From Raillietiella orientalis (taxonomy: Eukaryota), in contig JAYWIR010000034.1 in assembly GCA_036172245.1 (NCBI GenBank), positions 558,001-622,000 of the forward strand: a stretch of DNA of 64,000 bases, given 5' to 3'. This document shows positions 3,390 through 46,810 of this stretch, piece after piece. The notes beneath the pieces were generated by a model. The model did no database searches. It saw nothing but the letters and a program-made list of their open reading frames with translations, and had not been told where the DNA came from. Both the position numbers and the translations under genes were made by a program. Position 1 is the stretch's first letter. Every line of letters starts with the position of its first letter.

Positions 3390-6300
3390 TCCGGGACGTT
3401 CATTCCTTGAAAAGCAAGCAAAGAAAAATTTGGGAAATAAACGAAAGCCTGCGGATGGATTCACCGATACGCAGGTCGGGCAAGCAGAGAGTCCGAAACG
3501 AACGAGAAGAGACAATAAACAGAAAAAAACGCCCTGCAGCCTCCTCAAGATGTGCATCAGCTATTCAGAGACTTCTTGCGGCAGGTCTTCGCCTAGGCGG
3601 CTGCTAGGCTTTTCATCGAAGTCGCCTGAACGTTTCCTGGAAACAATAAACATTACAATAGGATGAGATCTTTGGCCTTATCAAGTCCCAGTCACGCCTT
3701 ACCAAGTGACCGGTGCGCAGACCGGAAAGGATGGCCTCAGCAGCAGAGGAGATGGAAAAAACGAAAATCAAAACGTAACCATCTATAACTCTGGAGAAGC
3801 ACGGGAAGGGATCACTGCCTGCTAAAGGCCGTCCACCGCATACTCTCCAGGATGCTGGCAAGTTCTTCACGGGTTTTCTCAAGGTGGGGTCATCTCCTTG
3901 CCTTTTGCAAAAACCGTGAATGGCACCTGTGCGGCTTCTTCCTCCACTGGCGGCGCTCCACGCAGCCTCAATGCCACGTGGGCGGCAAAGAGCTGCTAGC
4001 GATGCAGCCAGCGGCAATGCATCGCGCACGAAGGAGGGTCTCAGTGAGTCCCTGAAGTTGCCACACGATGTCCGGAGGATCCTCGCTGTGAAGCGTCTCC
4101 TCAACGGTTAAATGCCAACAAAGAGCACGAGCAGGTGCAGGAAGGTTTCACGTTCCCCACACCTGCAGCAATTCGGGTTCAGATATCCCCGGATCCAGTG
4201 ATGTCGGCGCGCGCAGCATGAGAGGCCCCAGAGGAACAGCATGGGCGCCGAAACCTGTCCTTGAGAGGGAGCGTGCGGTTGTTCAAGAGCTCTGGGGGCC
4301 ACTCGAGGTCCTGACAGAGAATCCTCAGCAGCTCACCCGAACGCACAAGTCGGTTTGACTGGAGACTTGAGATCGTGATATCAGTCAGCTGACCCGTGGT
4401 CATCCTACTTCTGGAGGAAACTTTGCACAAGACTTCCTATTTCGCCGGTAGGTTTCTGCCAAGATGCTTCATTAGGGAAGGTAGCTCCGCGGCAAGGGAA
4501 CTCCTTCGTGCCCACACACAATCGATGGGATGCACGATGGCCTTCTGCAGCGAGCAGTCGTTGTACAAGGAGTGCGGCAGTAACTTCAGGCTTGGCTCGT
4601 TGATCTTTGCACACGTGCTAACGGTTTTTCGCAATCAGACACTGCGTTCGCGGGGCCAGGAGATCCGGGCAGTGTCCCTGGTCAGTGCAACTACGCGTCG
4701 CACTTGTAGCCCGCAATGGGATATGCTGCAGCAGCTCCGTGACGCATCCGCGGCCGGCGGCTCGTCTGACCAGGAAGCGTGCCGGTACGCACCAGTCGTT
4801 GCTCCAGAGCTTTGCCACTGGGGCCAAAGTTCTCCATTGGAGCTACCGCTCCAGGAGCTCCAGCGTCAGGAAGCCGAGACCACGATCGTGCGGCGGAGCA
4901 CACAAGTGCTTCAGGCAGACTCTTGATCTCCCTTTGCTCCACTGGACGATTCGGAGGAGGTCTCAAAACTTCTGGGAGGAGGACAAACAGAAAGAAGGAG
5001 GGGGAAAAGAAAAGCCACAAAAGTGTTTCACACCGTGGCTCGTTGCGTCTGCCTCCTTGGAAACGGGCCGAGCGCCTGTTCTGCCTCCTGAAGATGACCG
5101 GACCAGGATTCTGCAACGCAGAAGTCACCCAATGGAAAGCTAAGGTAAGTTACGCTCCAGCTCATGAGGGTCTCCAGGAAAATCCAGTCTGACCGTCCAG
5201 ACCACGCTGCTCCAGTCGGTACCACCCACGAAACTCTCCCTGTTCCCTTGCAAGCCTGTGTCCGACTCAGCAAATCGAAGAAGCTATCGAGCAGTGAAGT
5301 CGGGGTGGACATGGGGAGCAGCAGCAGAAGATCGTCGGCGTAATACGAGCCGAAGGAGTGCCAGGCTGCGAACTTGGTGGAGAAGCAAGAGTATTCCTGA
5401 ATGCCCTCAGCACCGCTTCAGAATGGGTGCTGAAGAGCAAAGGGCTGTCGCTTTGCCTCATCCCGCGGCATCCTGTGAACATGCTCTCCGCTGAAAGAGA
5501 CGTTGATCAGCGTTCCGCGCCAGCAGGAACCCAGATAGGTCGTTAAGGTGGCCGGGAAACCCGAGCGTTCCAGGAGCTCCAGTAGATGTTCCTGCTCAGC
5601 GCAATCGAATTTCTTGCGCAAGTCGGCTGCCACCGCCCGATCCTCTCACCCCAAACCAACGGACGACTCGGAGTTCGAACTGCCAATCGTGCTGCTTTCT
5701 TGTTGGAACTGAAACCATGTGCTGGCGAATAGCACGTTGGCTTCCACGCTTGGCCCGGGAACAGAGTAAGTCTGCTTCGGGATAATCACAAATCAGACAA
5801 CCGGCTTACAAGCTCAGCGCACAGTTTGGCTAGCAGCTTGGCGTCCGCGTTTACAACGGTAACCGGCCGCCAGTTGCGTATGCCTTCAAGTCTTTCCCTT
5901 CAGGAGACGACGTACTGTTGCTGATCGCAATGTGGCGGGTGACTTCCCGCTGCTGGAGGGGTAGCTCCTGTGAATGCCGCGATGGCGCGCACTCAAGTCA
6001 ACGTCTCCGATCGTAGCATCGGGCGAGTCCGCCTCGTGCAAAGAGTCGCTGCGGCAAATTCCTGTCCTTATCCTCCAGACGAAGAAGCGCTGAAGCCAGC
6101 ACCCCGCTGCCGCTGTTCTTCGAGGTCACCGCAGTCCGGCTACAGGGGAGGCAACGATTCGACCGCCCCGCACCCGTAACAGTCCAATGTCTCCATTTTC
6201 CTGGGAACGAGGTGCAAGCGTTCTTTGCAGCGGAAGCTACAGCGGCGAGAGAACACCGTCTGGTGCTTCCCACTGAGAGAGAGACGTCTGTGCAAAGGGC

Positions 6301-26892: not shown

Positions 26893-29800
26893 TGTCTGTC
26901 TGCCTCCTTTCACTTTGTAATTCTCTCCAACCGAGGCTTATCTGTGCAGTCGCATTGCTACTTCTTTCCGGTCTTTTCCGGCGACGGCTACGAAGCAGTC
27001 AGCAGAGGCGACATCAAGAGACAGCCTTGCAAAGAAACGAAGCCAAGAGGCAGAATGGGAGTCAAGAAAATCCAACACGGCTAGTGGACGAGTGAGCTGG
27101 TCGACGCTGACATCCCACGGTTTCACGTCAAAGACAGGACCGTACTCCGGGTGCTCCCCGAAAAACAGATGCTCCCTGCCCTTTGCACAGACGTCTCTCT
27201 CTCAGTGGGAAGCACCAGACGGTGTTCTCTCGCCGCTGTAGCTTCCGCTGCAAAGAACGCTTGCACCTCGTTCCCAGGAAAATGGAGACATTGGACTGTT
27301 CCGGGTGCGGGGCGGTCGAATCGTTGCCTCCCCTGTAGCCGGACTGCGGTGACCTCGAAGAACAGCGGCAGCGGGGTGCTGGCTTCAGCGCTTCTTCGTC
27401 TGGAGGATAAGGACAGGAATTTGCCGCAGCGACTCTTTGCACGAGGCGGACTCGCCCGATGCTACGATCGGAGACGTTGACTTGAGTGCGCGCCATCGCG
27501 GCATTCACAGGAGCTACCCCTCCAGCAGCGGGAAGTCACCCGCCACATTGCGATCAGCAACAGTACGTCGTCTCCTGAAGGGAAAGACTTGAAGGCATAC
27601 GCAACTGGCAGCCGGTTACCGTTGTAAACGCGGACGCCAAGCTGCTAGCCAAACTGTGCGCTGAGCTTGTAAGCCGGTTGTCTGATTTGTGATTATCCCG
27701 AAGCAGACTTACTCTGTTCCCGGGCCAAGCGTGGAAGCCAACGTGCTATTCGCCAGCACATGGTTTCAGTTCCAACAAGAAAGCAGCACGATTGGCAGTT
27801 CGAACTCCGAGTCGTCCGTTGGTTTGGGGTGAGAGGATCGGGCGGTGGCAGTCGACTTGCGCAAGAAATTCGATTGCGCTGAGCAGGAACATCTACTGGA
27901 GCTCCTGGAACGCTCGGGTTTCCCGGCCACCTTAACGACCTATCTGGGTTCCTGCTGGCGCGGAACGCTGATCAACGTCTCTTTCAGCGGAGAGCATGTT
28001 CACAGGATGCCGCGGGATGAGGCAAAGCGACAGCCCTTTGCTCTTCAGCACCCATTCTGAAGCGGTGCTGAGGGCATTCAGGAATACTCTTGCTTCTCCA
28101 TCAAGTTCGCAGCCTGGCACTCCTTCGGCTCGTATTACGCCGACGATCTTCTGCTGCTGCTCCCCATGTCCACCCCGACTTCACTGCTCGATAGCTTCTT
28201 CGATTTGCTGAGTCGGACACAGGCTTGCAAGGGAACAGGGAGAGTTTCGTCGGTGGTACCGACTGGAGCAGCGTGGTCTGGACGGTCAGACTGGATTTCC
28301 TGGAGACCCTCATGAGCTGGAGCGTAACTTACCTTAGCTTTCCATTGGATGACTTCTGCGTTGCAGAATCCTGGTCCGGTCATCTTCAGGAGGCAGAACA
28401 GGCGCTCGGCCCGTTTCCAAGGAGGCAGACGCAACGAGCCACGGTGTGAAACACTTTTGTGGCTTTTCTTTTCCCCCTCCTTCTTTCTGTTTGTCCTCCT
28501 CCCAGAAGTTTTGAGACCTCCTCCGAATCGTCCAGTGGAGCAAAGGGAGATCAAGAGTCTGCCTGAAGCACTTGTGTGCTCCGCCGCACGATCGTGGTCT
28601 CGGCTTCCTGACGCTGGAGCTCCTGGAGCGGTAGCTCCAATGGAGAACTTTGGCCCCAGTGGCAAAGCTCTGGAGCAACGACTGGTGCGTACCGGCACGC
28701 TTCCTGGTCAGACGAGCCGCCGGCCGCAGATGCGTCACGGAGCTGCTGCAGCATATCCCATTGCGGGCTACAAGTGCGACGCGTAGTTGCACTGACCAGG
28801 GACACTGCCCGGATCTCCTGGCCCCGCGAACGCAGTGTCTGATTGCGAAAAACCGTTAGCACGTGTGCAAAGATCAACGAGCCAAGCCTGAAGTTACTGC
28901 CGCACTCCTTGTACAACGACTGCTCGCTGCAGAAGGCCATCGTGCATCCCATCGATTGTGTGTGGGCACGAAGGAGTTCCCTTGCCGCGGAGCTACCTTC
29001 CCTAATGAAGCATCTTGGCAGAAACCTACCGGCGAAATAGGAAGTCTTGTGCAAAGTTTCCTCCAGAAGTAGGATGACCACGGGTCAGCTGACTGATATC
29101 ACGATCTCAAGTCTCCAGTCAAACCGACTTGTGCGTTCGGGTGAGCTGCTGAGGATTCTCTGTCAGGACCTCGAGTGGCCCCCAGCGCTCTTGAACAACC
29201 GCACGCTCCCTCTCAAGGACAGGTGTCGGCGCCCATGCTGTTCCTCTGGGGCCTCTCATGCTGCGCGCGCCGACATCACTGGATCCGGGGATATGTGAAC
29301 CCGAATTGCTGCAGGTGTGGGGAACGTGAAACCTTCCTGCACCTGCTCGTGCTCTTTGTTGGCATTTAACCGTTGAGGAGACGCTTCACAGCGAGGATCC
29401 TCCGGACATCGTGTGGCAACTTCAGGGACTCACTGAGACCCTCCTTCGTGCGCGATGCATTGCCGCTGGCTGCATCGCTAGCAGCTCTTTGCCGCCCACG
29501 TGGCATTGAGGCTGCGTGGAGCGCCGCCAGTGGAGGAAGAAGCCGCACAGGTGCCATTCACGGTTTTTGCAAAAGGCAAGGAGATGACCCCACCTTGAGA
29601 AAACCCGTGAAGAACTTGCCAGCATCCTGGAGAGTATGAGATGGACGGTCTTTAGCAGGCAGTGATCCCTTCCCGTGCTTCTCCAGAGTTATAGATGGTT
29701 ACGTTTTGATTTTCGTTTTTTCCATCTCCTCTGCTGCTGAGGCCATCCTTTCCGGTCTGCGCACCGGTCACTTGGCAAGGCGTGACTGGGACTTGATAAG

Positions 29801-33280: not shown

Positions 33281-34498
33281 ATTTTTTATTGCTTAGGTAT
33301 ACAATTCTACAAAGCGTTACAGGGGGACTCCTGACATATTTTTAGAATTCCTCCTCTGCTCATTTGGGGAGCCCGTCGCCCCTCAACATGTTGCTTCCTC
33401 AGCGCCTTTTCATCCGTCTCACGAGAGCTGACCGTTGGTCTTTTCCGTCTGTATCTGATTTTCGTTTCTTCGTGCGACGTGGGCTGCACAGAGTATTATC
33501 ACGAACTGCCTTTTCGGAATTCCAAGATCCTGCAGCACTTCTCCGTTACCTGGATCTCAGACTCCCAGGGAGTCAACGATAAAAGCGTGCACCCTGCATT
33601 GTTTCCCCTCTCCGCCTATCTAGAGGGCTACTTCCTTATACTTTTCCTGTTTGTTTCTTCTGGATGTGCTGAATGTCTCTCTTCCATCTTTGAATGAGCA
33701 GCAGGCGTCCAGCACTATTTTCCGGTTTCCTTTCTCCACCACTAAGTCCGATCTTCAGAGGAAATTCGTTCCTGGAGTTCTCTGGTTAGTGGGCACTAGG
33801 GTCCACTTTGCTTCATCCACCGCGGCCCTGCTGACCATTTCTTGGAATGCGCTATGTCGTGCAATGGGCAGGTGAGAGTGCCTCCTGCATCTGCTTGATG
33901 TATGAGGGAATGTTTCGTCTTCTGTCCAGCAGCGCCGACATGCGCGTTCTTCGGGTTCCATCCTGGGCCCAGCCCTAACTGGTAGGACGTTTAGATGGAA
34001 AAGATGAATAAATGCGTAGGATGAATCTGTAATCCTGGAACCTGAGAAATTCTCCATTGGTGAGTAAGAAGTGAGGCATGGTGCATGCCCACACACTGAA
34101 TGACTCTCTCTTGACTGAGGTGCTTTTGAACTAGGGATTGCCATGCAGTGCTCTCACATCAGAAGTAAACTTTCTGCTCATGATGCTGCTGAAGATGACG
34201 CCGTCGACCGTTATATCGGACTCTCCATCATTGAACTTCCAGCGGGCTTTTGTTCTTCTCGAGGCCCCTCATTTTTTGGACCAAAAGGCTCTTGGTATCT
34301 CTGCTGCGCTGTGCGAATTGCCCGGAGAAAGCCCTTGTCATGGAAAGTCCGAGATTCTCATCCTTTCTCGAACGAGCATTTTTTTCTGGACCACTTCCCT
34401 AAGCGTTTCCTGGGCCAATTTCTTCAGCGCGTTGTCTGGGAGATGAATAATTCGAAGCAGTTTCCAGTGGCGAACGTGTCGGATTTATTAGTCATTTG
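33281..34498 (-). mobile_element. 5'-truncated RLE-type (R2 group, NeSL/Utopia-like) non-LTR retrotransposon: post-RT domain, CCHC knuckle, restriction-like endonuclease, short 3'UTR
   Basis: Translation gives FIHLFHLNVLP...CRRCWTEDETFPHTSSRC...IARHSAF...L*RSDLVVEKGNRKIVLDACCSF...RRNKQEKY...VHAFIVDSLGV*DPGNGEVLQDLGI, the RH/PD..D/K..KY RLE signature. Upstream fragments SPDNALKKLAQETLREVVQKK and FWSKK*GASRR. Ends near aataaaaaa at about 33281-33290. Confidence 0.85.
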
Positions 34499-34591
34499 GC
34501 GTAATGATTTGCGCAAGTTAGTTCGTTGGTTGTATATCAAGATTTTGTTAATTATTCTGCGAGTGAGTTGCTTAGTCTTTGTAGGTTGTTG
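34499..34591 (+). repeat. Terminal direct repeat of the viral insert, left copy
   Basis: gcgtaatgatttgcgcaagttagttcgttggttgtatatcaagattttgttaattattctgcgagtgagttgcttagtctttgtaggttgttg; matches 36563-36656 with 5 substitutions and 1 indel. Confidence 0.95.
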
Positions 34592-35188
34592 TCTTTAGCT
34601 CAACAGTTTGAATTTGTTCGTCTTATTGGAGTAAGGTGGACTTTTGAACAATTATCGGAAAGTTATACTGATGAAAGTGAAGTTCCTATTGGATCGTTTA
34701 ATGTGGAAGGAAATTACAGTCATGTGAATTACGTTATATTGACTAATCCAGCTGAGGAGTAGCCTTTTAATAAGTTTTATGATTTGAAGTTTAGCGAATG
34801 TATGAAGAATTTTGCTTGGCATCACTTCATTCTTCTACAAGTTTAAGCAAAGGGATGAGTCTGCATATAGTAGATGTTGTGTGGAGAAGCAGATTGTATT
34901 GACCTCGAAGGGCGACTCTGTACTGTATATAGTCGTCCAAGATGTCCATGGTTAAGCACTGAAAAAACCACTGGAATAAACTCTTTCCTGCTGATCGGAC
35001 GTCCCATCATTTGTAAACACATCGTTGGATTTAAGGTACCAGCCGAGTGGACGCAAGACAAAACTATTAAAGAAGTCCAAGGGATTAACAAAAATGCACC
35101 AATGTTTCGAATTTGGAGAAAATTTTATTTTCAATTGAAGAGAGCCAGAGACATTAGATATTATAGAGAGGATACGTATTTGTTATGA
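34499..35188 (+). pseudogene. cap: CRESS virus capsid protein, central and C-terminal part
   Basis: VVYQDFVNYSASELLSLCRLLSLAQQFEFVRLIGVRWTFEQL...SRPRCPWLSTE...MFRIWRKFYFQLKRAR...YLL*. Resembles circovirus-type jelly-roll capsid motifs (F-YYRI-KVKV-F, PW, terminal YVQFR strand). Overlaps the N-terminal part via the terminal repeat; has internal stops. Confidence 0.75.
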
Positions 35189-36149
35189 CTGATTTGTAGT
35201 GTGTTTACTTCTTTCGTTGATGAAGTGGACTATCCATCTATCGAACTCATTTTTTCATACAGTGAGGATCCATGTTGGCGAAAATCATGACATGTGGACT
35301 TGGGAACATCTTTACATGTCCTTGACATTTTGTTGAGAATGGTATTCCATTTTTTATGGTTTCCATCAACCCATAATTTATCATCTCCTATACATCTTTT
35401 GTGAGGTCCATAATAACTATCTTCTGTCCATCGTACATATAAGTGGCATCAGCTTTTTTGCAGTTGTTCAAGTAAAGACCATCGTACTTTATACATATAT
35501 GTATATATATATATGTTTTGCAGCTGTTGTCTTGCCTGAATTGCCCTGATAGTCGGTGAGCCAGTGGATGTCTCTATCGTTTGGTTCAGTGGAAATGATG
35601 TCAATTAAATTCTTTTGCCATTGTGGTAAAGCCTTTCCTTCTATTGGATCTTGGTTTTAGAATTTTGGAGATCGAATGGTGTCGTTTGTGAATTGCCTAT
35701 GTTTGTCGTACACATCAGGCTTTCCTTTCCATATCCATTTCTCACTTTTTCCATTGTGTATCCAATCTTGTATCTGGAAATATCTGTTGTTGATAACTGT
35801 TTCAAATAGATATATTTGCACCTGTTTGTAGATGTTTGTTTTCATTTCCGTTTGTAGTCGTCCATATATCCAAAGGTTCTTTGTCTTCTTTCGTGCAGTA
35901 ATCTGCAGCTTGTTTTGGAGTTCCTCTGCTTGATTCTATGTGCGCTCGTCTGAATTCTATTCTATTTTTTTTAGTTTTGGTATTGCTGTCGGATCTACTA
36001 GTTGAAAGCATCCTTGGATATGTTTGGTTCCTTGGATGCCAATTTCTTTTGCTAGAATTGCATGAGAACATTTTTCTTTTAACTAGGTTTCAAGTAATTC
36101 TTCTTCGTTGTTAGTGTATGCACCAGTTGTTGCTCACAGCGTAAGGCAT
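35183..36149 (-). pseudogene. rep: CRESS virus replication initiator protein (HUH endonuclease plus SF3 helicase), pseudogenised
   Basis: ATG at 36149 (MPYAVSNNWC, degenerate motif I); motif II TKHIQGCF (36011-36022); AHIESSRGTPKQAADYCTKE motif III (35886-35900); WQKNLIDIISTEPNDRDIHWLTDYQGNSGKT Walker A (35528-35545); IVIMDL Walker B; INYGLMETIKNG..FSTK; PHVMIFAN motif C; DRW arginine finger; TAA at 35183-35185. Several stops and frameshifts. Confidence 0.95.
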
Positions 36150-36200
36150 CTTGTTTTGAGGGTGCTGGTTCGTACCCTGAGGTTGTATATAGTAGTTGTC

Positions 36201-36234
36201 AAGGTCAAGAGGATAGTATTACCCTCTTGACCTT
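36201..36234 (+). other. Rolling-circle replication origin stem-loop with nonanucleotide TAGTATTAC (36214-36222)
   Basis: aaggtcaagagg-atagtattac-cctcttgacctt: a perfect 12-bp stem with the canonical circovirus/nanovirus nonamer in the loop, lying between the Rep and Cap starts. TATATA at 36186-36191 lies on the Rep side. Confidence 0.96.
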
Positions 36235-36302
36235 TGAGTTGTTTACAAGTATTCTGCGTTGAGGAAAATTGATTCCCGGAAGGAGGGGGGGGTTATGTCG
36301 TG

Positions 36303-36656
36303 ATGGTGTATGTAACTCGTGGTAGATATCGTTCTTATCGAAGGCGTTTGTTGGCGTATCGTAATTTGAGGAGGCGACGTGCTGTCGCACGTCTCCGCAG
36401 ACGTAATTAAAGGTCGCGTAATTATCGTGGTCGTAATTATTTGCGTAAATTAGCTTGGACTGGTCCTTTGGTTCGTTTGTCTAGTAAATTGAAGCGTGGA
36501 TGTTTGGATGTTACAAAACGGCATATTGTGGTTACGGATACTGTGTATTTGAATTTTTTGAAGCGTAATGATTTTGCGCAAGTTAGTTCGTTGGTTGTAT
36601 ATCAAGATTTTGTTAATTATTCTGCGGGTGATCTGCTTGGTCTTTGTGGGTTGTTG
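36303..36656 (+). pseudogene. cap: CRESS virus capsid protein, Arg-rich N-terminal part
   Basis: MVYVTRGRYRSYRRRLLAYRNLRRRRAVARLRRRN*RSRNYRGRNYLRKLAWTGPLVRLSSKLKRG...VVYQDFVNYSAGDLLGLCGLL; a single premature TAA at 36408-36410 interrupts an RNY repeat. Confidence 0.88.
36563..36656 (+). repeat. Terminal direct repeat of the viral insert, right copy
   Basis: Matches 34499-34591 at an offset of 2064-2065 nt. Confidence 0.95.
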
Positions 36657-38342
36657 GCGCACAGTCGTACTGATGTGCCCACCAAAAGGTTGCATTTTTT
36701 ATCGCAGCAGCTGCAGATGGAGGCAAGAAGGCCAGGTGAAGGGGCATTCCACAAGTCCAGCAGGAGATGGAGTTGGAGAAGGAAAGCCTTTAGAGTTAAG
36801 GTCCACAGTGTTTTTCTCTGTTTTACGGAGGGTCACCCCCTAGATTGCAGAATCCAGCCGGTGCCTTAATTGGAATCCTCCTTTTGCCTTCACGAGAGGA
36901 CCGACTCCTTCCTGAAGGGAGTTGCCACCAGGAGCTCATCCCGTTTGCATGATCTCCAGTCCAGAGAAGACTGCGAAGCTCCGCCACTTTACCTGCGAGT
37001 GCTTCAGCAGAGTTCGAACTTTGAGAAAACAGAGTCGTGTAGGCATGTGGGGGTCATGTAGGCACTCAGTCTTGATGGCTCTTAACGGAAAGCCTCGAGC
37101 AACTGTCAAGGGACCAGGAGCTCTTTCTGGATTTGCGGAGGCAGAGTGGATCGCCATTGGATCTGCTCGCTCCCTCGCAAGCATCCTGCGTTGGTGCCCC
37201 TCCTGCGCTGGACTGTACTACACAATGAGCCCCGACACAAAATGACGGAGAAGGTGCAGTGGGAATATGGAATCGTAATCACATTTTCATCTGGATCGCG
37301 GTTCTTTTCATTCCCGGCGAACATGCTCGGACAGGATACCCTTCCTCACCCTTGTAACGAGCAGAAACAAACTAGGACTCTTCTTCCCGGATAAGCTACT
37401 TACTCTCGAAGCACCCACCACCCTGTGCTGCGTTCTCAGAGCCGCGCTGGCAGCGTGTCATCCGTGGAAGCGGAACGACGAGGCTAAGCGGAGCATGGAA
37501 GTGGATCCACGTTACCATAGGAAACTGTACAAGGAATTGTCTGCATCATGAAGGAACTTGCTAGAGAGAGATACGCTCCAATCCGGTGACCCTAGGCTCT
37601 CCCTCACGCATTGAGTGCTTTTTAATTACTTTCCATCGTCTCTTCCGCCCTTCTCTCTCTGCAGCCATTCCTAGCGGATGCATGGGCTCGTGGCTGCACT
37701 GTCCTGGTAGCCGTGAGGAGGGAGCGTTTCAAACAGGTGACGCCGGGACGTTCACTCGAAAATAAACTTACAGGTCACTGAGAACTGGGTTCACAGAAAA
37801 CAAAAACCAAAAAAAAAAAACCTCACAGGAAATGACCCGGCAAGCTCTTAAAGAAGTCGGAGTGGGAGGGAGGCAAAACAAATAATTTAAAAAAAAAAGA
37901 GTGGTGGGATGGGAAGGGATTTTTGTTTCGAACCACTTCGTTTTCCTAGAGCTGGAGTTGTATGTTGGTGATTTCTCTGGCGTTATTCCTGGAATGAAGT
38001 TACCTTGCAGCCGTCATCATCAAGGCGGTTACCATGCGTGTGGCCTCTCTTTGCTGCACTCGAAACTCCAGCGCGTAGCGGACTGTGACGATGGTGCGAA
38101 TGCAGCATCTCGTGGCGATCACGGCGTCCTGCCGGTCGAACGTGAATCTGCGCGCTCCACGAGGTCAGGAACCCGTGAATTGTGTGCTAGTGTTTGGCAG
38201 CTGCCCGAAGGCCCCAGAACCTAACGGGCCAGCTGTCACCTCCCTGGGAGTAGGGGCGGAAGTCTCACTACTCGGGGTGAGGGAGGTGGATGCTGTTCTC
38301 TCCAAAGAAGGATCGTTTTCCCACAGCGAGAAGAACTGGGGC

Positions 38343-40200
38343 ATGGTGGCTGCGGCACCCTTGCCTCCGGCAGCTGCCGAAGCGTAGGCCTACCACGTCT
38401 CAGGCCATAATCCATACCTGAGATATAAGGTAGGCCCTTTGTATGACCTTTCGGTAGCGCGCTTCTTCTCGGAGGAGCTGCAGAGACTGCAAATCAAACC
38501 GGAAGAGCTTTGCGCGCTCTCCGTTCTGGCCGAGGAAAGGGTCGTTGAGGTGGCTTTCAAGGACCCGAGCCTGGCCTAGCGACTGTCGCGAACCCCGATC
38601 GTGATCGGAGGGCGTAGCTCCTCCCGTAAAAGAGGACCGCTCCCTGATCTTGCACTCACCGGCATTACGGTAAGGACGACCAAGAAGGTGGTCCACCAGA
38701 AATTGGAGGAGTTGCAGGACGGTGCACGCACTGTGGGCGAAGCCCCGCATCTTCCCTGAATACCAGGGATCTGCATGTCTGATCACTAGCCTCGCAGCGG
38801 CACGCATTACCGTCCACGAAGGGGGGACGCTACCCTACAGATTGGACGTCGACGGGGAACCCGTCGACATCTGGTACGAAGGGATTCTCCTTGTGTGCGC
38901 CCACTGTGGCAAGTCGCAGCACCGGAAGAGGGGGTGCCCCGACATCGAGTGCTACCGTTGCTGCGCGAAGGGACGCATCCAGTTCGTGGGCCCCTCTTAC
39001 GGCCGCCATCCGGTCAAACATGCGTCGGCTATAAAAAAGAAAAAAAAGAGCAAAAAAAATAAAAATAAAAATAAAAAGAGTAAGAAAAATAAGAAGAACC
39101 GAGCGCTCACAGCTGATTCCACATCGAAGACCATTCTGGAAAGTGACCAGCAACCAGCGGCATCCACCACACCTGCACCTGAGGCAAGCAGCCATGTAGA
39201 AGCAGAATAGAGGGAAGAGGAAACAAGCTGAGTGCAAGTTTTCTTTTTTCCACTATTTGTTTTTTCCGGTAGGAAAAAACAAATAGTGGAAAAAAGAAAG
39301 GGGAAAAAACCGCCGATTGCTCGCGAAGTCATTCCACGACTCGCGAAAATAAAAAACGTGGAAGCTGTGGCGCAGCACATCGTCTCACCTCATAGGGAGA
39401 GTAGCAAGGTCGCACAACCCGCAACCGGGAGCACGGTAGACGGGACCTGCAACATGCAGGTCGTCAAGGTTGTTGACCTAGCGGCAGCCCTGCAAACCTC
39501 CCGGCAACCTCTGGAAAGCGCCCTAGAGTCATGACGCTCGCGGCCACGAGAGTCGCTCGGGACGCTATACGCAGGGCCACCGCGCAAGAATAGCTCTACC
39601 TGACCTCCGAGGTAGAGACGAACGCTGAACTGGCGCCTCCCGTGCAGGGACTACGCCACAAGACCGCGCTCCATGTAGAAGCGGTCCACAGGGAAGTGTC
39701 CCTGCAAGGGGGGAACGACGCTGGTTCTGACCCAAAGATGGAGGAAGGCTCACAGGACTCCTCCATGGAGACAGCCCCGCCCTTCCCGCCGCAAGGTGAA
39801 GAGGGCATAGGGCGTGCCACGGAAGTCCGGGAAATGCCTTCCCCCAACGAGAACGCGCCACCTGCAAGCCAGAAGGGAGCCGCACTGCCAGATTCCCAGA
39901 AGCAATGCGCGGAGTCGCGTACTCCCGTCGCTTGCGCGTGCCCCTTTGGAACGTGAACGGCCTGCAAGGCGTCGGGAAGAGACGCGACAAAGCCAACGTC
40001 CTACGAAACTTCGACTTGGTGCTCCTCCAAGAGATTCACGTGATCTCGGACGAGGATGCCGCCGACTTCGAATGGATCGCGGGTGGAAAGCTTCATTGGC
40101 GGTGTGGCACCAGTAAATCGAGAGGGGTGGCATTCCTGATACAGCCAGCCACCATGCGTGCGGTGCATAGCGTGCGATTCGACGTTGTCACCTGGTCACG
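38343..40200 (+). mobile_element. 5' half of an L1/Tx1-like element: ORF1 with two CCHC knuckles plus the start of the ORF2 APE endonuclease
   Basis: LPYRLDVDGEPVDIWYEGILLVCAHCGKSQHRKRGCPDIECYRC (ORF1), then LWNVNGLQGVGKRRDKANVLRNFDLVLLQEIH...SKSRGVAFLI (APE motifs WNVNG, LQE, RGVA). Confidence 0.88.
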
Positions 40201-40402: not shown

Positions 40403-42550
40403 CCCACCCGGTCACACCGGGGCGTTTATTTCTAAACACAGTATATTTGCGGTACTAGGCCCGCTACGGCCAATGGTTCATGGTGCCTGCCGGGTCGCCG
40501 GCGCGCAGACAGGCGCGACTCTCCTCGGCAGCGGTGGGGAATGGGGAAAGAACAAAAATAAAAATAAGAAGAAAACAAAAAAAGAAACACTCCGGTGGTC
40601 TGGGAAGGGATCACTGTCCACCAAAGGAAGAGACAATCCTTTCCAGGATGCCCTCGAGGTCCCTTTGCATGGCTCCCAGAAGGGACCAGCCGATCGCGAT
40701 TCGCAGGTAGCGACCCGCGTGTACGATGGGATCCCTATCGCTGCTTCCTCTGTTGGCTGCGCTCCACTCAGCCACAATCCCTCGAAGGCAGTAGAGCGCT
40801 GCCAGGGTTGAGGCTGGTGGCAGGGCGTCTCGCACGAAGAGGAGTCTCACAACGTCTCTGGGGGTACTGCCGACCGGCATAGGGAGGGTCGTAGCATAAC
40901 GTTCCCACAAGGGCCGGAGGGCAGCTCAGTCCACTAACAGGTGGGGAAGGGATTAATTTTCCCCGCACACGGCACAGTTCTGTCCCACGTTCCCCAACGT
41001 CCAGTCGTGGCGGCGCGCGTTGCAGGGGGTACCCCAGTGCAACAACAGCGCCGTTTCCTGCCACTTGAGGGCAGGGTGGATGCGTCTCTAAATAACGGGG
41101 GCCACTCTAGGTCATCCGCCGGGATGCCAAGCAGCTCGCCCCATCTCCGTATTCCATGCGGGTGAACGCTTGGGGTTGCGGCGTCTGCCAGTTCCCTCAT
41201 TGTCCACCCGCTTAGATCCTTCTCCTTGCCCGCTATCCGGCAGGAGACTTGCCATCTCGGCTTCCGGCTGTTTTGAAGCGCCCTTCGTAGGAAGGGCAGC
41301 CCTGTGGCCAGTGGGGTCGTCTCCGCCCAAGTGCTTCTGGCGGGACACTCGATCATGTTCTGCAGCGTGCAGTGGGTGTAAATGCCGGTGCGCAGGCGGT
41401 TGCAGGATTCTCCACTGATGTGTTTCAACTTTGCCCACGTTCCAACTGTTTCTTCCAGCCATGCGCTGGAGTTGGCGGGGCTGCAGGCCATCCATCCGTT
41501 CTCCTTTGACAGGGTGGCCATGCGTCCCAGGAGAAGTCCTTATCTTCTTATTTTCCGGCCGGGGCACAGAAGAAAAGACGCGAGTCCTTCAGTCCCGGAC
41601 ACACGTCTGGCGAGAAGGCGTGCTGGAACGCACCAAGGGGTGCTCCACATTTTCGCTGCGATGGCTAGAGTACGCCACCGCAGCTGTGTTTCCATTCGCT
41701 CCATCGTCAGGACGCTAAGACCTCCGTGCCGACGTGGAGCGCTCAAATTCTTTAAAGGCAAACGAGACCTCCTGCCGCCCCACAGGGGGATGCGTAGGAG
41801 GTCCTTTGTTCTTTTTTTCAGTTCACGGGGTACGGGGCAAACAAAAAGCAGGGGGCGAAGGAGGGGGGCCGCGAACGCGTTTCACACCGCAGCCCGTTCC
41901 GTCAAGTGAAGCTTGTCTTCCAGGAACGGGCCGATCGCTGACTCCACTTTTTGGAGACGACCTGACCAGGCTTCTGACTGGCAGAAGTCCCCCAACGTAA
42001 CGCCGAGGTACTTCAAGTACCTCTCCGTGGGGATCCCCAGGCGGATTCAATCAGGTCGTCCTGCCCACTTTGCACCAACCGCAACCAGCGACGACTTCGT
42101 TCTGCTCACCCGTAGTCCTGTCCACGGCTCAGCAAGTCGAAGAAATCTTCGACTGCCGAAGCCGGGGCGGACATGGGCAGCAGGAGCAAAAGATCGTCAG
42201 CATACGCCGACACGGCCGGCGTACCTGGACACGAGCTTGAAAGGGCAGCCAATGTCACCCTGTATGCTCTCAGCACTAGTTCGAAATAGGTGCTAAAGAG
42301 CAGGGGACTCAGGCTGTCGCCCTGCCGGATGCCGCGCCTCACCGGCACGCCGAACACGTGCTGTCCTCTGAAAAACAAGTTGATGATCGCATTGCGCCAG
42401 TAGGCGCGCAGGTAGGCCGTTAAGGTGTCCGGGAAGCCCATGCGATCCAGGAGCTCCAGAAGGAGTTCCTGGTCCACGCAATCGAACGCTTTGTGCAGAT
42501 CGACTGCGATCGCTAGAGCCCCCTTCCCTTCCCGGTCGTCCCTTCCCTGC
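40403..42550 (-). mobile_element. L1/Tx1-like element: RT core to 3' end
   Basis: AVDLHKAFDCVDQ...RGIRQGDSLSPLLF...SAYADDLLLLL, FKYL, GGLS, zinc finger remnant, ORF2 end Q* at about 40611, and 3'-terminal aataaacgccccggtgtgaccgggtg at 40405-40430. Confidence 0.92.
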
Positions 42551-42659
42551 CCCGCTGGCGCTCCCAAATCAGGGTTGCCGACATTCCGTTCTTTTTCCTT
42601 TTTTTCCTCGACCATGTAAGAGTTTAAATAAATGTCACGGCGTACCCGGGTGGCATCAT

Positions 42660-43013
42660 CAAACCCAGGGGGCAGGCTGTGCATGGGGAACTCCTCGCAG
42701 AATTCGCGGACAGAGGCCTTCATGCGGTCCCACTCCGTGAGATTCCGGAGGGACAGCTTGCTGGCATCCTCCAGAGGATGACGGACCCTCCCAGCAGACA
42801 GTGATCCCTTACCGTTCCCACCCCAGTTTTGTTTATTTTTTTGTTTTCTTTTTGTTTCAATCCCCCTCCCCTCTGCTGCCGAGGTCGACCACACCGGTCT
42901 GTGCACCGGGAACCCGGCAGGCTGAATGTATCTAGGACGTGGCTGGACTACTGGTCCAGTCACAGTTTATAGAGGTTTGTTCGTAAGAATAAACGTCCTG
43001 GAGCAACCAGGTT
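42660..43013 (+). mobile_element. Short 3' end of an L1/Tx1-like element
   Basis: LAGILQRMTDPPSRQ* ending in cagtgatccctt (42799), T-rich UTR, and terminal aataaacgtcctggagcaaccagg (42988-43011). Confidence 0.75.
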
Positions 43014-45174: not shown

Positions 45175-46810
45175 GTTAGGAGAGGGTTCGCCTCCGGCTA
45201 TCGCGGCTCCGGAGGAACCGAGGGGGGGTTTCTTCCCTGGTGGCGACCTCTAAGGCCTCCACGTGCTCCAAAGCCAAGCGTCCGTCGTCCAGTGGCAAGA
45301 AGGTCGGCCAGGAGTAGGAGCCCTTGCGGTCGTAGTCGATCTGCACAAGGCATTTTATTGCTTCGACCAGGAGCTCTTTCTGGAGCTGCTGAAACACTTG
45401 GGCTTCCCGGCCGCATTGTCGGTCTACCTGAGCTCCAGCTGGGGCCACACGCTCATCATTATCTCTTTCAGCGGGCAGACATTGCATGGAGTCCCGATGT
45501 GACGCGGTATACGGCAGGGAGACAGTCTGAGCCCCTTGCTCTTTAGCACCTATTTCGAATTGGTGCTGAGAGCATACAGGGAGACTCTGCCTCTCCACTC
45601 GCGCGTATGTTCCGGCACGCCTGCCGTCTTAGCATACGCGCACGATCTTCTGCTGTTGCTCCCCATGTCCACCCCGGCATGCGCACTCGACGGTTTCTTC
45701 GAGCTGCTCAGTCGTGGAACGGGCCTGGTGGTCAACAAGGCGAAGTCATCCGTGGTTCCCGTAGGCTCATCGTGGGCAGGGCGGCCGGACTGGATTCGCA
45801 GGGGGATCCCCATGGCCCGTTACATAAAGTACCTGGGCGTTCCGTTGGATGACTTTTGCCCCTCAGAAGCCTGGTCCGACCGTCTTCAGAAAGCACTGCA
45901 GATGCTCGATCCGTTCCAAAGAGCGGTGTGGAACACGTTTGTGATCCTTCTACTCCGCCCCTTGCTTTTTGTTTGCCCACCGCCATGCAGCATTTGAAAG
46001 CGGACAAAGGAACTCATCCGGATCGCCCTCTGGGGCAAAAAGAGGCCTCGAGTCCACCTAAGGGACTTGTGTGCTCCGCGTCGGGACGGCTGCCTAGGCC
46101 TTCTGACGCTGGAACGGATGAAGCTGCAGCTCCAGTGTCGAACATTGGTCCTCGCGAAAAAATTCTGGAGCACCACCTGGTGCCAACCTGTACATTTTCT
46201 CGTCCCGCAAGCCACAAGCAGCCTGGGAATCGCGTCCTTCCTTGCGCGTCGTCCATGCAGTCTCATCCACGGTGGACTGCACCTGCGGCAGGTAACCACG
46301 CTGGCGAGGAAAAGCGGATGGATCTCGTGCCGCCCTTGAACGGAAGTGCCTGTTTGCAGAAAACCGTTCGCACGTGGGCGAGGATCCAGGAGCCAAGCGC
46401 GGAATAGGGGCGACGTTTCCTGTACGCGAGCAACAACAGCTGCACGCTCCGGGAGATCCTGGAAGATCCCGCGAAGAGTGCATTGGCAAACAGAACCTCC
46501 GTCGCCGCCATGCCGCCCTCCTTTAGAAAGCAAATGGACCATGGATCAAATGCCTTACGGCTAGATGGGAGGTTCCTACGGAAATTTTCGGAGGGAGAAA
46601 AGGACTGAGCGAGTGTACGTTGGGCCAGCTCACTGATGCTGCAACCCAGGGTGCTCGACCTCGTGGACTTTTGCGTTGGAACGTGCTAATGGGTATTCCG
46701 AAGGAAGACCTGCAGTGGCTCTTGGTGCACATGAACACCCGCAACCTCTCTTTAAAGTGGCAGCAGTCGGCATTGCTGCTGCTGCCTCCCGCGCAGCGCC
46801 CTCTGGCATC
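45175..46810 (+). mobile_element. RT core and downstream ORF2 region of an L1/Tx1-like element
   Basis: VVDLHKAFYCFDQ...RGIRQGDSLSPLLF...LAYAHDLLLLL (YADD mutated)...VNKAKS...IKYLGVPL...DGCLGL. Confidence 0.9.

What the first reader, a model, noticed from the sequence alone, without database searches (positions are those of the whole stretch)
34499..36656. Complete endogenous CRESS ssDNA virus genome that can be re-circularised in silico
Seen: every part of a monopartite ambisense CRESS genome is present: Rep with HUH motifs II and III (motif I degenerate) and all SF3 motifs, an Arg-rich Cap, a TAGTATTAC stem-loop between the divergent starts, and convergent stops. Joining the terminal repeats gives a circle of about 2064 nt with a continuous Cap. 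Established: endogenous CRESS elements are most often reported as Rep fragments, and germline copies are used to assign hosts to orphan CRESS lineages. Inference: this is a fossil whole genome tying a CRESS lineage to this host.
Basis: partly seen in the sequence, partly recalled or inferred. Interest (0 to 1): 0.92.

Follow-up and report, generated by a model that had tools for sequence, protein, structure and literature searches.

The report
Decayed whole CRESS virus genome insert
A complete but heavily broken copy of a tiny circular single-stranded-DNA virus lies embedded in this eukaryotic chromosome; it is a genuine viral fossil, but whole-genome fossils of this kind have been reported before.

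Summary
Window 34499-36656 carries slightly more than one unit (2064/2065 nt plus a 93/94-nt terminal redundancy) of an ambisense CRESS-DNA virus genome.

- Rep lies on the minus strand (36149-35183). It has a degenerate motif I, then HIQG, YCTKE, GNSGKT, IVIMDL and IFAN.
- An 11-bp stem carries the window's only TAGTATTAC. It sits in the 153-nt region between the divergent starts.
- An Arg-rich ORF on the plus strand reads in frame across the repeat junction.

A profile of 14 metagenomic Reps hits only the two minus-strand frames (E 1e-32 and 2e-31). Rep has at least 5 frame changes and 3 internal stops. The Cap frame has 6 internal stops. The two repeat copies differ by 5 substitutions and 1 indel. 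This is an old integrated fossil, not a contaminant.

- The Cap frame most likely runs on to 35188, tail-overlapping Rep by 6 nt.
- Cap has no detectable homologue, so it rests on architecture alone.
- No read or contig spanned either junction.
- The Rep clade is metagenome-only. Its helicase half did not match the solved circovirus Rep.

Whole-genome and tandem CRESS fossils are already published, so this is a new member of a known kind. Interest is moderate.

The parts
34499..34591 (+). Left copy of the terminal direct repeat (inside the Cap frame). It has one T fewer than the right copy, which shifts the frame at 34508.
36563..36656 (+). Right copy of the terminal direct repeat. It keeps the Cap frame (…KRNDFAQVSSLVVYQDFVNYS…).
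35183..36149 (-). Rep pseudogene (HUH endonuclease plus SF3 helicase). It has at least 5 frame changes, internal stops at 36085 (TAG), 35659 (TAA) and 35390 (TAG), and a final TAA at 35185-35183. It carries about 60 extra codons between the two domains compared with the clade profile.
35491..35515 (.). TA-rich microsatellite-like run just after Walker A, at the position where relatives read KHICI. It coincides with one of the Rep frame changes.
36150..36302 (.). 153-nt intergenic region between the divergent Rep and Cap starts; contains the origin.
36201..36234 (+). Origin stem-loop: 11-bp stem, loop ATAGTATTAC, nonanucleotide TAGTATTAC at 36214-36222, on the Cap-sense strand.
36198..36209 (+). 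Tandem hexamers GTCAAG GTCAAG overlapping the 5' arm of the stem (candidate iterons; could be chance).
36303..36656 (+). 5' part of the putative Cap: Arg-rich N-terminus (20 R in 49 codons), one internal TAA at 36408, running through the right repeat.
34499..35188 (+). 3' part of the putative Cap. The same frame runs from 34508 to a TGA at 35186-35188, with internal stops at 34760, 34844, 34856, 34868 and 34871. The cluster of four may instead mark a short stretch read in another frame (ORF 34806-34955). The tail overlaps the Rep tail by 6 nt.

Best explanation
This is a dead, chromosomally integrated copy of a roughly 2.06-kb ambisense CRESS-DNA virus (phylum Cressdnaviricota).

Anatomy (shown): Rep and a capsid-position gene diverge from a 153-nt origin region. 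That region holds a TAGTATTAC stem-loop on the Cap-sense strand. The two genes end tail to tail with a 6-nt overlap.

Integration (inferred): the inserted DNA was a linear piece slightly longer than one genome unit, broken inside Cap. It was most likely a double-stranded rolling-circle replication product captured at a chromosome break by end joining. This would explain why 93/94 nt of Cap are present at both ends in the same register.

Decay (shown): Rep now has at least 5 frame changes and 3 internal stops. The Cap frame has 6 internal stops. A TA microsatellite has expanded inside the helicase. The two end copies differ by 5 substitutions and 1 indel.

Function (inferred): it does nothing today. 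Its value is as a record that a virus of an otherwise metagenome-only Rep clade once reached the nuclei of this lineage.
For: Rep identity:
- One read-through piece of Rep (149 aa) found 246 proteins at E <= 1e-3 among 1.84 billion, best 6e-9.
- 12 of 12 top hits checked carry PF02407 above cut-off, and 2 of 12 also carry PF00910.
- The 10 looked up lie on contigs of 1,015-3,208 nt.
- tblastn of those proteins gives collinear minus-strand matches from 36080 to 35250 in alternating frames.
- The clade profile hits only the minus frames, at E 1.3e-32 and 2e-31, and nothing elsewhere in the window.

Origin: stem-loop z = -5.08, and the nonamer is unique in the window.

Architecture matches the relatives:
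- Of 22 related viral contigs of 2.7 kb or less, 20 had both a Rep ORF and a second ORF of at least 100 aa. In 20 of those 20 the two are on opposite strands.
- The second ORFs are 214-401 aa. 13 of 21 start with at least 10 R/K in the first 45 residues.
- TAGTATTAC is present in 22 of 34 loci, and in 21 of those 22 it lies on the strand opposite Rep, as it does here.

More than one unit, in register.

Decay.

Composition: the element is 37.9% GC against 50.5% for the rest of the window.

Independent run: a low-coverage DNA run holds error-free pieces of the left flank (depth 3.4) and of Rep (depths 3.0 and 2.6). This is weak evidence, and the run may be the sample the assembly came from.
Against: - No read or contig spans 34498/34499 or 36656/36657, so the junctions rest on the assembly alone.
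- Cap has no detectable relative. There was no Pfam family at E up to 10, no protein-database hit, and the best phmmer E against the ORFs of 34 related contigs was 0.29. The protein-atlas hits were meaningless and the single-sequence fold was unusable at pLDDT 32.7. 'Cap' therefore rests on position, orientation, length and the Arg-rich start.
- Pfam scores for Rep are each below the curated cut-off.
- The end-joining capture of a rolling-circle product is inferred. No clear microhomology or target-site duplication was seen at the junctions. A later local duplication could also create the terminal repeat.
- No second copy or empty site was available, because no genome is held for this window.
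Confidence: 0.85

Rival explanations
1. Assembly chimera: reads of an exogenous CRESS virus present in the sample were wrongly joined into a host contig.
For: CRESS viruses are common contaminants of sequencing samples (recalled, and raised in PMC6069186, passages seen). No junction-spanning read was obtained.
Against: A replicating virus would have open Rep and Cap genes. Here Rep needs at least 5 frame changes and has 3 internal stops, and the Cap frame has 6. The two copies of the terminal repeat differ at 6 of 94 columns, which a circular contaminant assembled with an overlap would not show. The insert sits 34 kb and 27 kb from the contig ends. Pieces of flank and of Rep occur at similar low depth in run X1.
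Confidence: 0.04
2. It is a true integration of exactly one genome unit, and the 93/94-nt terminal repeat arose later by a local duplication or repair event, not from a longer-than-unit replication product.
For: Nothing in the sequence fixes when the repeat arose. The repeat divergence (about 5%) looks low beside the number of stops and frame changes in the genes. That would fit a repeat younger than the integration. The numbers are small.
Against: The two copies sit exactly at the two ends of the viral DNA and in circular register (spacing equals the unit length, with Cap frame continuity). This is what a longer-than-unit linear molecule gives. A random later duplication would not be expected to produce it. 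Tandem multi-unit integrations are documented for circoviruses in cyprinid fish (PMC6372831, passages).
Confidence: 0.1
3. It is a retrotransposed viral transcript (LINE-mediated), as proposed for amplified rep-only circoviral elements in carnivores.
For: LINE-type reverse transcriptase remnants are abundant in the window. LINE-mediated copying of circoviral elements is reported in PMC6372831 (passage).
Against: Both oppositely transcribed genes and the untranscribed origin stem-loop are present in genomic order, with more than one unit and no poly(A) tail at either end. A single mRNA cannot give this.
Confidence: 0.01

Closest known systems
Whole-genome endogenous krikovirus (Draupnirviridae) elements in snakes, lizards, turtles, beetles and an earwig (Kinsella & van der Hoek 2023, PMC10193959; abstract, found passages and sections 6-7 read)
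   Same: Rep and Cap are integrated together as one genome (17 of 36 Cap elements there are paired with Rep). Both are riddled with stops; their example has 3 in Cap and 7 in Rep. They are used to tie an orphan cressdnavirus lineage to hosts. The elements have lower GC than exogenous viruses.
   Different: Membership of Draupnirviridae could not be tested here, because no reference sequences are reachable. Their common Cap type is circovirus-like by HHpred, whereas this Cap matches nothing. This window is not CpG-depleted (observed/expected 0.85), which does not look like a reptile genome. That paper does not mention terminal redundancy or the origin stem-loop in the text I read.
Tandem full-length circovirus genomes in the germline of carp and Sinocyclocheilus (Dennis et al. 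2019, PMC6372831; highlights and found passages only)
   Same: More than one unit of a circular ssDNA virus genome is integrated head-to-tail.
   Different: Those are genus Circovirus (about 70% nucleotide identity to barbel circovirus) and comprise several full units. Here there are 1.05 units of a non-circovirus lineage.
Uncultured CRESS genomes of IMG/VR (L001-L034) and metagenomic Reps P0061, P0004, P0003 and others. The only named ones are WAE42473.1 'Cressdnaviricota sp.' and QXP07654.1 'Arizlama virus'.
   Same: Rep has the same motif set (GNxGKT, IxIFDxxR-type Walker B, FAN, …DRWxI tail). Genomes are about 1.7-2.6 kb, ambisense, with TAGTATTAC on the Cap-sense strand.
   Different: Identity is only 27-56% in the matched Rep stretches. 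No Cap similarity was found. Those sequences are intact and free, while this one is integrated and broken. Rep here has about 60 extra codons in the inter-domain linker.
Cyclovirus-type genome organisation (Circoviridae), recalled and not taken from a call
   Same: Ambisense genome with the origin nonamer on the Cap-coding strand and little or no 3' intergenic region.
   Different: The clade profile matches solved PCV2 Rep (7lar) only over the endonuclease domain and not over the helicase half. No circovirus capsid family hit was found.

Membership tests
Cressdnaviricota (CRESS-DNA virus genome) | HUH endonuclease domain with motifs I-III (Pfam Viral_Rep PF02407) | tested here: met
   Motifs II (HIQG) and III (YCTKE) are present and motif I is degenerate. 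PF02407 positions 9-61 (21.0 bits) and 62-82 (14.7 bits) match in two frames. Each is under the 26-bit cut-off, but they are collinear. The clade profile gives E 2e-31.
Cressdnaviricota (CRESS-DNA virus genome) | Superfamily 3 helicase with Walker A, Walker B and motif C fused to the endonuclease | tested here: met
   GNSGKT, IVIMDL and IFAN are in order. PF00910 scores 17.5 bits (cut-off 21.5) over positions 30-105, with Walker A in the other frame. The clade profile gives E 1.3e-32.
Cressdnaviricota (CRESS-DNA virus genome) | Origin stem-loop with a NANTATTAC-type nonanucleotide in the intergenic region next to rep | tested here: met
   11-bp stem with TAGTATTAC in the loop, z = -5.08. It is the only copy in 64 kb. 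It lies 52 nt from the Rep ATG. The strand is the same as in 21 of 22 relatives that carry it.
Cressdnaviricota (CRESS-DNA virus genome) | Capsid gene (jelly-roll Cap with basic N-terminus) | tested here: inconclusive
   An ORF of about 316 codons is in the right place and orientation, with 20 R in 49 codons. There is no homologue and no usable fold (pLDDT 32.7).
Cressdnaviricota (CRESS-DNA virus genome) | Small circular genome (about 1-6 kb) | tested here: met
   Circularity is inferred from the in-register terminal redundancy, which gives a unit of 2064/2065 nt. The parts add up exactly: 967 + 950 - 6 + 153 = 2064.
Circoviridae | Rep (including the helicase) and Cap recognisably related to circovirus or cyclovirus proteins | tested here: not met
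   The profile of the nearest Reps matches PCV2 Rep 7lar only at residues 13-102 (endonuclease). It matches nanovirus endonuclease structures equally well (E about 3e-21). Cap hits no Pfam family at E up to 10. This test is indirect, because no phylogeny with classified references was possible.
Draupnirviridae / Krikovirus | Rep falls inside the CRESSV3 clade in a phylogeny with classified references | not testable with these tools
   No named draupnirvirus sequence could be fetched. The only named relatives are 'Cressdnaviricota sp.' and 'Arizlama virus'. The supplementary tables of PMC10193959 were not opened.
Endogenous viral element (germline fossil) | Viral DNA contiguous with host DNA on both sides | tested here: inconclusive
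   This holds in the assembly, with 34.5 kb and 27.3 kb of retroelement-bearing flanks. No independent read or contig spans either junction.
Endogenous viral element (germline fossil) | Inactivating mutations consistent with neutral decay | tested here: met
   Rep has at least 5 frame changes and 3 internal stops. The Cap frame has 6 internal stops. The terminal repeats have diverged by 6%.
Endogenous viral element (germline fossil) | Fixed or orthologous in other individuals or related species | not testable with these tools
   No genome is held for the window. Only one low-coverage run was found.

The most novel reading that the evidence does not exclude
The fossil may be the first host anchor for a CRESS clade otherwise known only from metagenomes. 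That clade has Rep with a GNxGKT / FAN / DRWxI helicase, genomes of about 2 kb, and the origin on the Cap strand. The anchor would be a large-genome eukaryote that lacks CpG depletion, so probably not a vertebrate. The fossil would also preserve that clade's capsid gene, which has no detectable relative. Its in-register 1.05-unit ends would record the capture of a rolling-circle replication intermediate.
Probability: 0.35. Interest if true: 0.55.

Novelty: new member of a known kind. Interest (0 to 1): 0.4.

Why it matters
Most CRESS-DNA viruses are known only as metagenomic circles with no host. A chromosomal fossil is one of the few sequence-only ways to assign one. This fossil carries the whole genome, including the origin and a capsid-position gene that homology searches would never have found. 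That is useful because surveys of invertebrate genomes reported rep-only elements and suspected that cap was being missed (PMC6069186, passages). The terminal redundancy also gives an internal clock: two copies that were presumably identical at integration. It also hints at the integration substrate. It does not change what is known about this kind of element, because whole-genome and tandem integrations are already published.

Tried and rejected
- Whole-genome searches of the window's own assembly: no genome is held.
- Earlier notes of this scan: nothing on this genome or this sequence.
- Sequencing runs: one DNA run with a 0.10 share. No RNA holder was listed.
- Laid contigs cover only 33790-34081, 35594-35744 and 35913-36063, and none bridges a junction.
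- Cap identification:
  - Pfam on pieces and on read-through: 0 families.
  - Word-indexed protein search: none at E <= 0.01.
  - tblastn and phmmer against all ORFs of 34 related viral contigs: the only plus-strand hits were antisense shadows of Rep, and the best Cap E was 0.29.
  - Protein atlas on the 104-aa open C-terminal piece: recognition below threshold, with bacterial CxxCxxCC clusters at 0.89. I rejected this as chance.
  - AlphaFold single-sequence fold: pLDDT 32.7, so no fold search was run.
- Word-indexed search with the Rep piece, 'longer' lengths: no hit.
- Profile too diverse for a locus search. This was solved with a smaller alignment.
- Naming the Rep clade: only two named relatives, both uninformative. 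'Arizlama' occurs in nine listed papers, several of them on microviruses, which suggested no specific clade; I saw the listing only.
- L032, a 1,022-nt Rep-only contig, is not the solved nanovirus Rep.
- Host identification:
  - No Rfam family and no tRNA.
  - 123 ORFs of at least 110 aa gave only one more reverse-transcriptase piece.
  - Protein atlas on the RT ORF gave Chordata-rich clusters at 0.80, below the level that counts.
- Idea that the insert sits inside a LINE (a CCHC-like CRRCWTEDETFPH in the left flank, a GDPP-like piece in the right): no Pfam support on ORFs or read-through frames, and no other copy of the flanks in the window. It is left as an impression.
- One literature search returned only irrelevant papers.
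Full report
**What is there**

Window 34499-36656 (2,158 nt) differs sharply from its surroundings. It is 37.9% GC against 50.5% for the rest of the window. Its first 93 nt and last 94 nt are a direct repeat. The alignment has 94 columns at 93.6% identity, with 5 substitutions and one single-T indel. The start-to-start spacing is 2064/2065 nt. No other copy of the element or of either flank exists in the 64 kb.

**Rep**

On the minus strand an ATG at 36149-36147 opens a reading that must change frame at least five times to stay homologous. In order it reads:
- MPYAVSNNWC, then a frame change into YTNNEEELLET. This is motif I with a residue missing.
- HIQG (motif II).
- YCTKE (motif III).
- A long linker.
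- GNSGKT (Walker A).
- IVIMDL (Walker B).
- IFAN (motif C).
- FDRWIVHFI, ending at TAA 35185-35183.

Three stops lie inside homologous stretches: TAG at 36085, TAA at 35659 and TAG at 35390.

Short single-frame pieces hit Pfam Viral_Rep only weakly (E 0.004-0.012). Read-through frames with X at stops gave three sub-threshold matches:
- PF02407 positions 9-61: 21.0 bits.
- PF02407 positions 62-82, in the other frame: 14.7 bits.
- PF00910 positions 30-105: 17.5 bits.

These are collinear halves, each below its own cut-off.

A 149-residue read-through piece was scored against 1.84 billion representatives. It found 246 proteins at E <= 1e-3 (best 6.1e-9, none below 1e-10), matched around their residues 100-200.
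- All 12 of 12 hits that I scanned carry PF02407 above cut-off, and 2 of 12 also carry PF00910.
- The 10 looked up sit on contigs of 1.0-3.2 kb.
- tblastn of the 150 listed hits onto 34000-37200 gave collinear minus-strand matches from 36080 to 35250 in alternating frames. This held in each of the twelve best, at 27-61% identity.

An HMM of 14 of these Reps was searched against the six read-through frames of 34700-36400. It hit only two minus frames, at E 1.3e-32 and 2e-31, covering profile positions 21-259 of 276. Run over the whole window in six frames, it hit nothing else.

That alignment shows about 60 extra codons between the endonuclease and helicase parts. It also shows that a TA-rich run at 35491-35515 sits where relatives read KHICI. 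A microsatellite appears to have expanded inside the helicase and caused one of the frame changes.

**Origin**

Rep starts at 36149 and the plus-strand ATG is at 36303, leaving 153 nt between them. They contain an 11-bp stem (36201-36234) with loop ATAGTATTAC.
- As single-stranded DNA it folds with z = -5.08, and 0 of 200 shuffles fold as well.
- TAGTATTAC occurs once in the window against 0.04 expected. 3 of 100 shuffles had at least one.
- Two tandem GTCAAG hexamers overlap the 5' arm. They are candidate iterons but could be chance.

**Cap**

The plus-strand frame from ATG 36303 begins with 20 Arg in 49 codons. That is the highest of 127,708 such windows in all six frames of the window; the next best is 17, in a GC-rich stretch. 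It has one TAA at 36408. It reads through the right repeat copy as …KRNDFAQVSSLVVYQDFVNYS…, and the left copy continues the same peptide.

The same frame does not end at the TAG at 34760. It continues to a TGA at 35186-35188, directly opposite the Rep stop, so the two genes overlap tail to tail by 6 nt. The parts then add up exactly to one unit: 967 + 950 - 6 + 153 = 2064. Four of the six internal stops are clustered at 34844-34873. There the neighbouring frame is open (34806-34955), so the true path may include two compensating frame changes.

Nothing confirmed that this is a capsid protein:
- No Pfam family at E up to 10.
- No hit in the word-indexed protein search.
- No similarity to any ORF of 34 related viral contigs.
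- An uninformative protein-atlas answer.
- A useless single-sequence fold, pLDDT 32.7.

The assignment rests on architecture.

**Relatives and architecture**

A pattern search of IMG/VR with a small alignment gave 147 pattern matches, of which 34 were confirmed.
- Of the 22 loci of 2.7 kb or less, 20 had both a Rep ORF and another ORF of at least 100 aa. In 20 of those 20 the two are on opposite strands.
- The other ORF is 214-401 aa. In 13 of 21 it begins with at least 10 R/K in 45 residues.
- TAGTATTAC is present in 22 of 34 loci. In 21 of those 22 it lies on the strand opposite Rep, as here. The exception is a 1,022-nt Rep-only contig.

The fossil therefore has the organisation of its clade.

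The clade profile matches solved endonuclease domains of a nanovirus (6h8o, 2hwt) and of PCV2 (2hw0, 7lar) equally, at E about 3e-21. In full-length PCV2 Rep, however, only residues 13-102 match, not the helicase. By recall, the helicase motifs (GNxGKT, IFDxxR, FAN, DRWxI) resemble nanovirus or alphasatellite Reps more than circovirus Reps. No call tested that.

The only named relatives were 'Cressdnaviricota sp.' and 'Arizlama virus'. I could not test membership of Draupnirviridae.

**Is it really integrated?**

For integration:
- The genes are far too broken for a replicating contaminant.
- The two end copies have diverged.
- The insert lies 34 kb and 27 kb from the ends of a contig whose flanks carry reverse-transcriptase remnants.
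- One public low-coverage DNA run holds error-free pieces of the left flank (depth 3.4) and of Rep (depths 3.0 and 2.6).

Against, or still open:
- That run may be the assembly's own source.

**Host**

No genome, tRNA or Rfam family helps.
- CpG observed/expected is 0.85 across the window and 0.89 in the element. The host genome is therefore not CpG-depleted as vertebrate genomes are (recalled norm 0.2-0.3).
- The 64 kb hold no recognisable gene apart from retroelement pieces, which suggests a large, repeat-rich genome.
- The protein-atlas lead to Chordata for the RT ORF scored 0.80, below the level that counts.

**Mechanism and age (inferred)**

A single crossover with a circle would give exactly one unit. 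In-register redundancy at the two ends instead points to a linear, longer-than-unit double-stranded product of rolling-circle replication. It would have been broken within Cap and joined into a chromosome break. I saw no convincing microhomology or target duplication.

If the two end copies were identical at integration, 5 substitutions in 93 sites give K of about 0.054. Age is then K/2μ, roughly 5-30 million years for μ of 1-5 x 10^-9 per site per year. The Poisson error is about threefold either way and the host rate is unknown. The number of stops and frame changes in the genes suggests the older end of that range, or an already defective virus.

**Comparison with what is in print**

[quoted passage not shown] 17 of 36 Cap elements are paired with Rep 'as whole virus genomes', in snakes, lizards, turtles, beetles and an earwig.
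- Dennis et al. [quoted passage not shown] They found only four cases with both rep and cap.
- Dennis et al. 2018 (PMC6069186; passages) found only rep-derived elements in invertebrates. They suspected that divergent cap genes go undetected.

A whole-genome, longer-than-unit CRESS fossil is thus a known kind. What may be new here is the lineage, the probably non-vertebrate host and the recovered capsid-position gene. I did not open any supplementary table, so I cannot exclude that this very locus is already listed.

**Verdict**

This is a new member of a known kind, of moderate interest.

Noticed in passing
window 42109-42966 (-), 45503-45994 (+); also 45278-45718, 27773-28222, 5256-5747: Reverse-transcriptase (PF00078) remnants of LINE-like retroelements. 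The two best copies are 65% identical over 147 aa. They are the only recognisable protein domains outside the viral insert among 123 ORFs of at least 110 aa.
   Followed up: partly
whole window: CpG observed/expected is 0.81-0.90 in every 8-kb block at 43-58% GC. There is no CpG depletion, so the host is unlikely to be a vertebrate despite a weak protein-atlas lead to Chordata for the RT ORF.
   Followed up: partly
window 33758-34153 (-) and 36823-37053 (-): The flanks of the insert read on the minus strand like decayed LINE ORF2 pieces: a CCHC-like CRRCWTEDETFPH…C on the left and a …GGDPP… piece on the right. This suggests the virus landed inside a retroelement. Pfam gave no support.
   Followed up: partly
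window 35660-35860 (-): Rep of the fossil has about 60 codons more than the 14-sequence clade profile between the endonuclease and helicase domains. This may be a lineage-specific linker or inserted junk.
   Followed up: no
window 39031-39098 and 40555-40586: A-rich low-complexity tandem repeats (periods 11-30) about 2.4 kb downstream of the insert.
   Followed up: no
L032 (1,022 nt) and L005-L007, L009-L013, L015, L029 (contigs of 4.4-4.7 kb): Among the Rep relatives in IMG/VR, one is a 1-kb Rep-only circle with TAGTATTAC on the Rep strand, so satellite- or nanovirus-component-like. About ten sit on contigs of 4.4-4.7 kb, twice the usual size. The clade therefore spans several genome formats.
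   Followed up: partly
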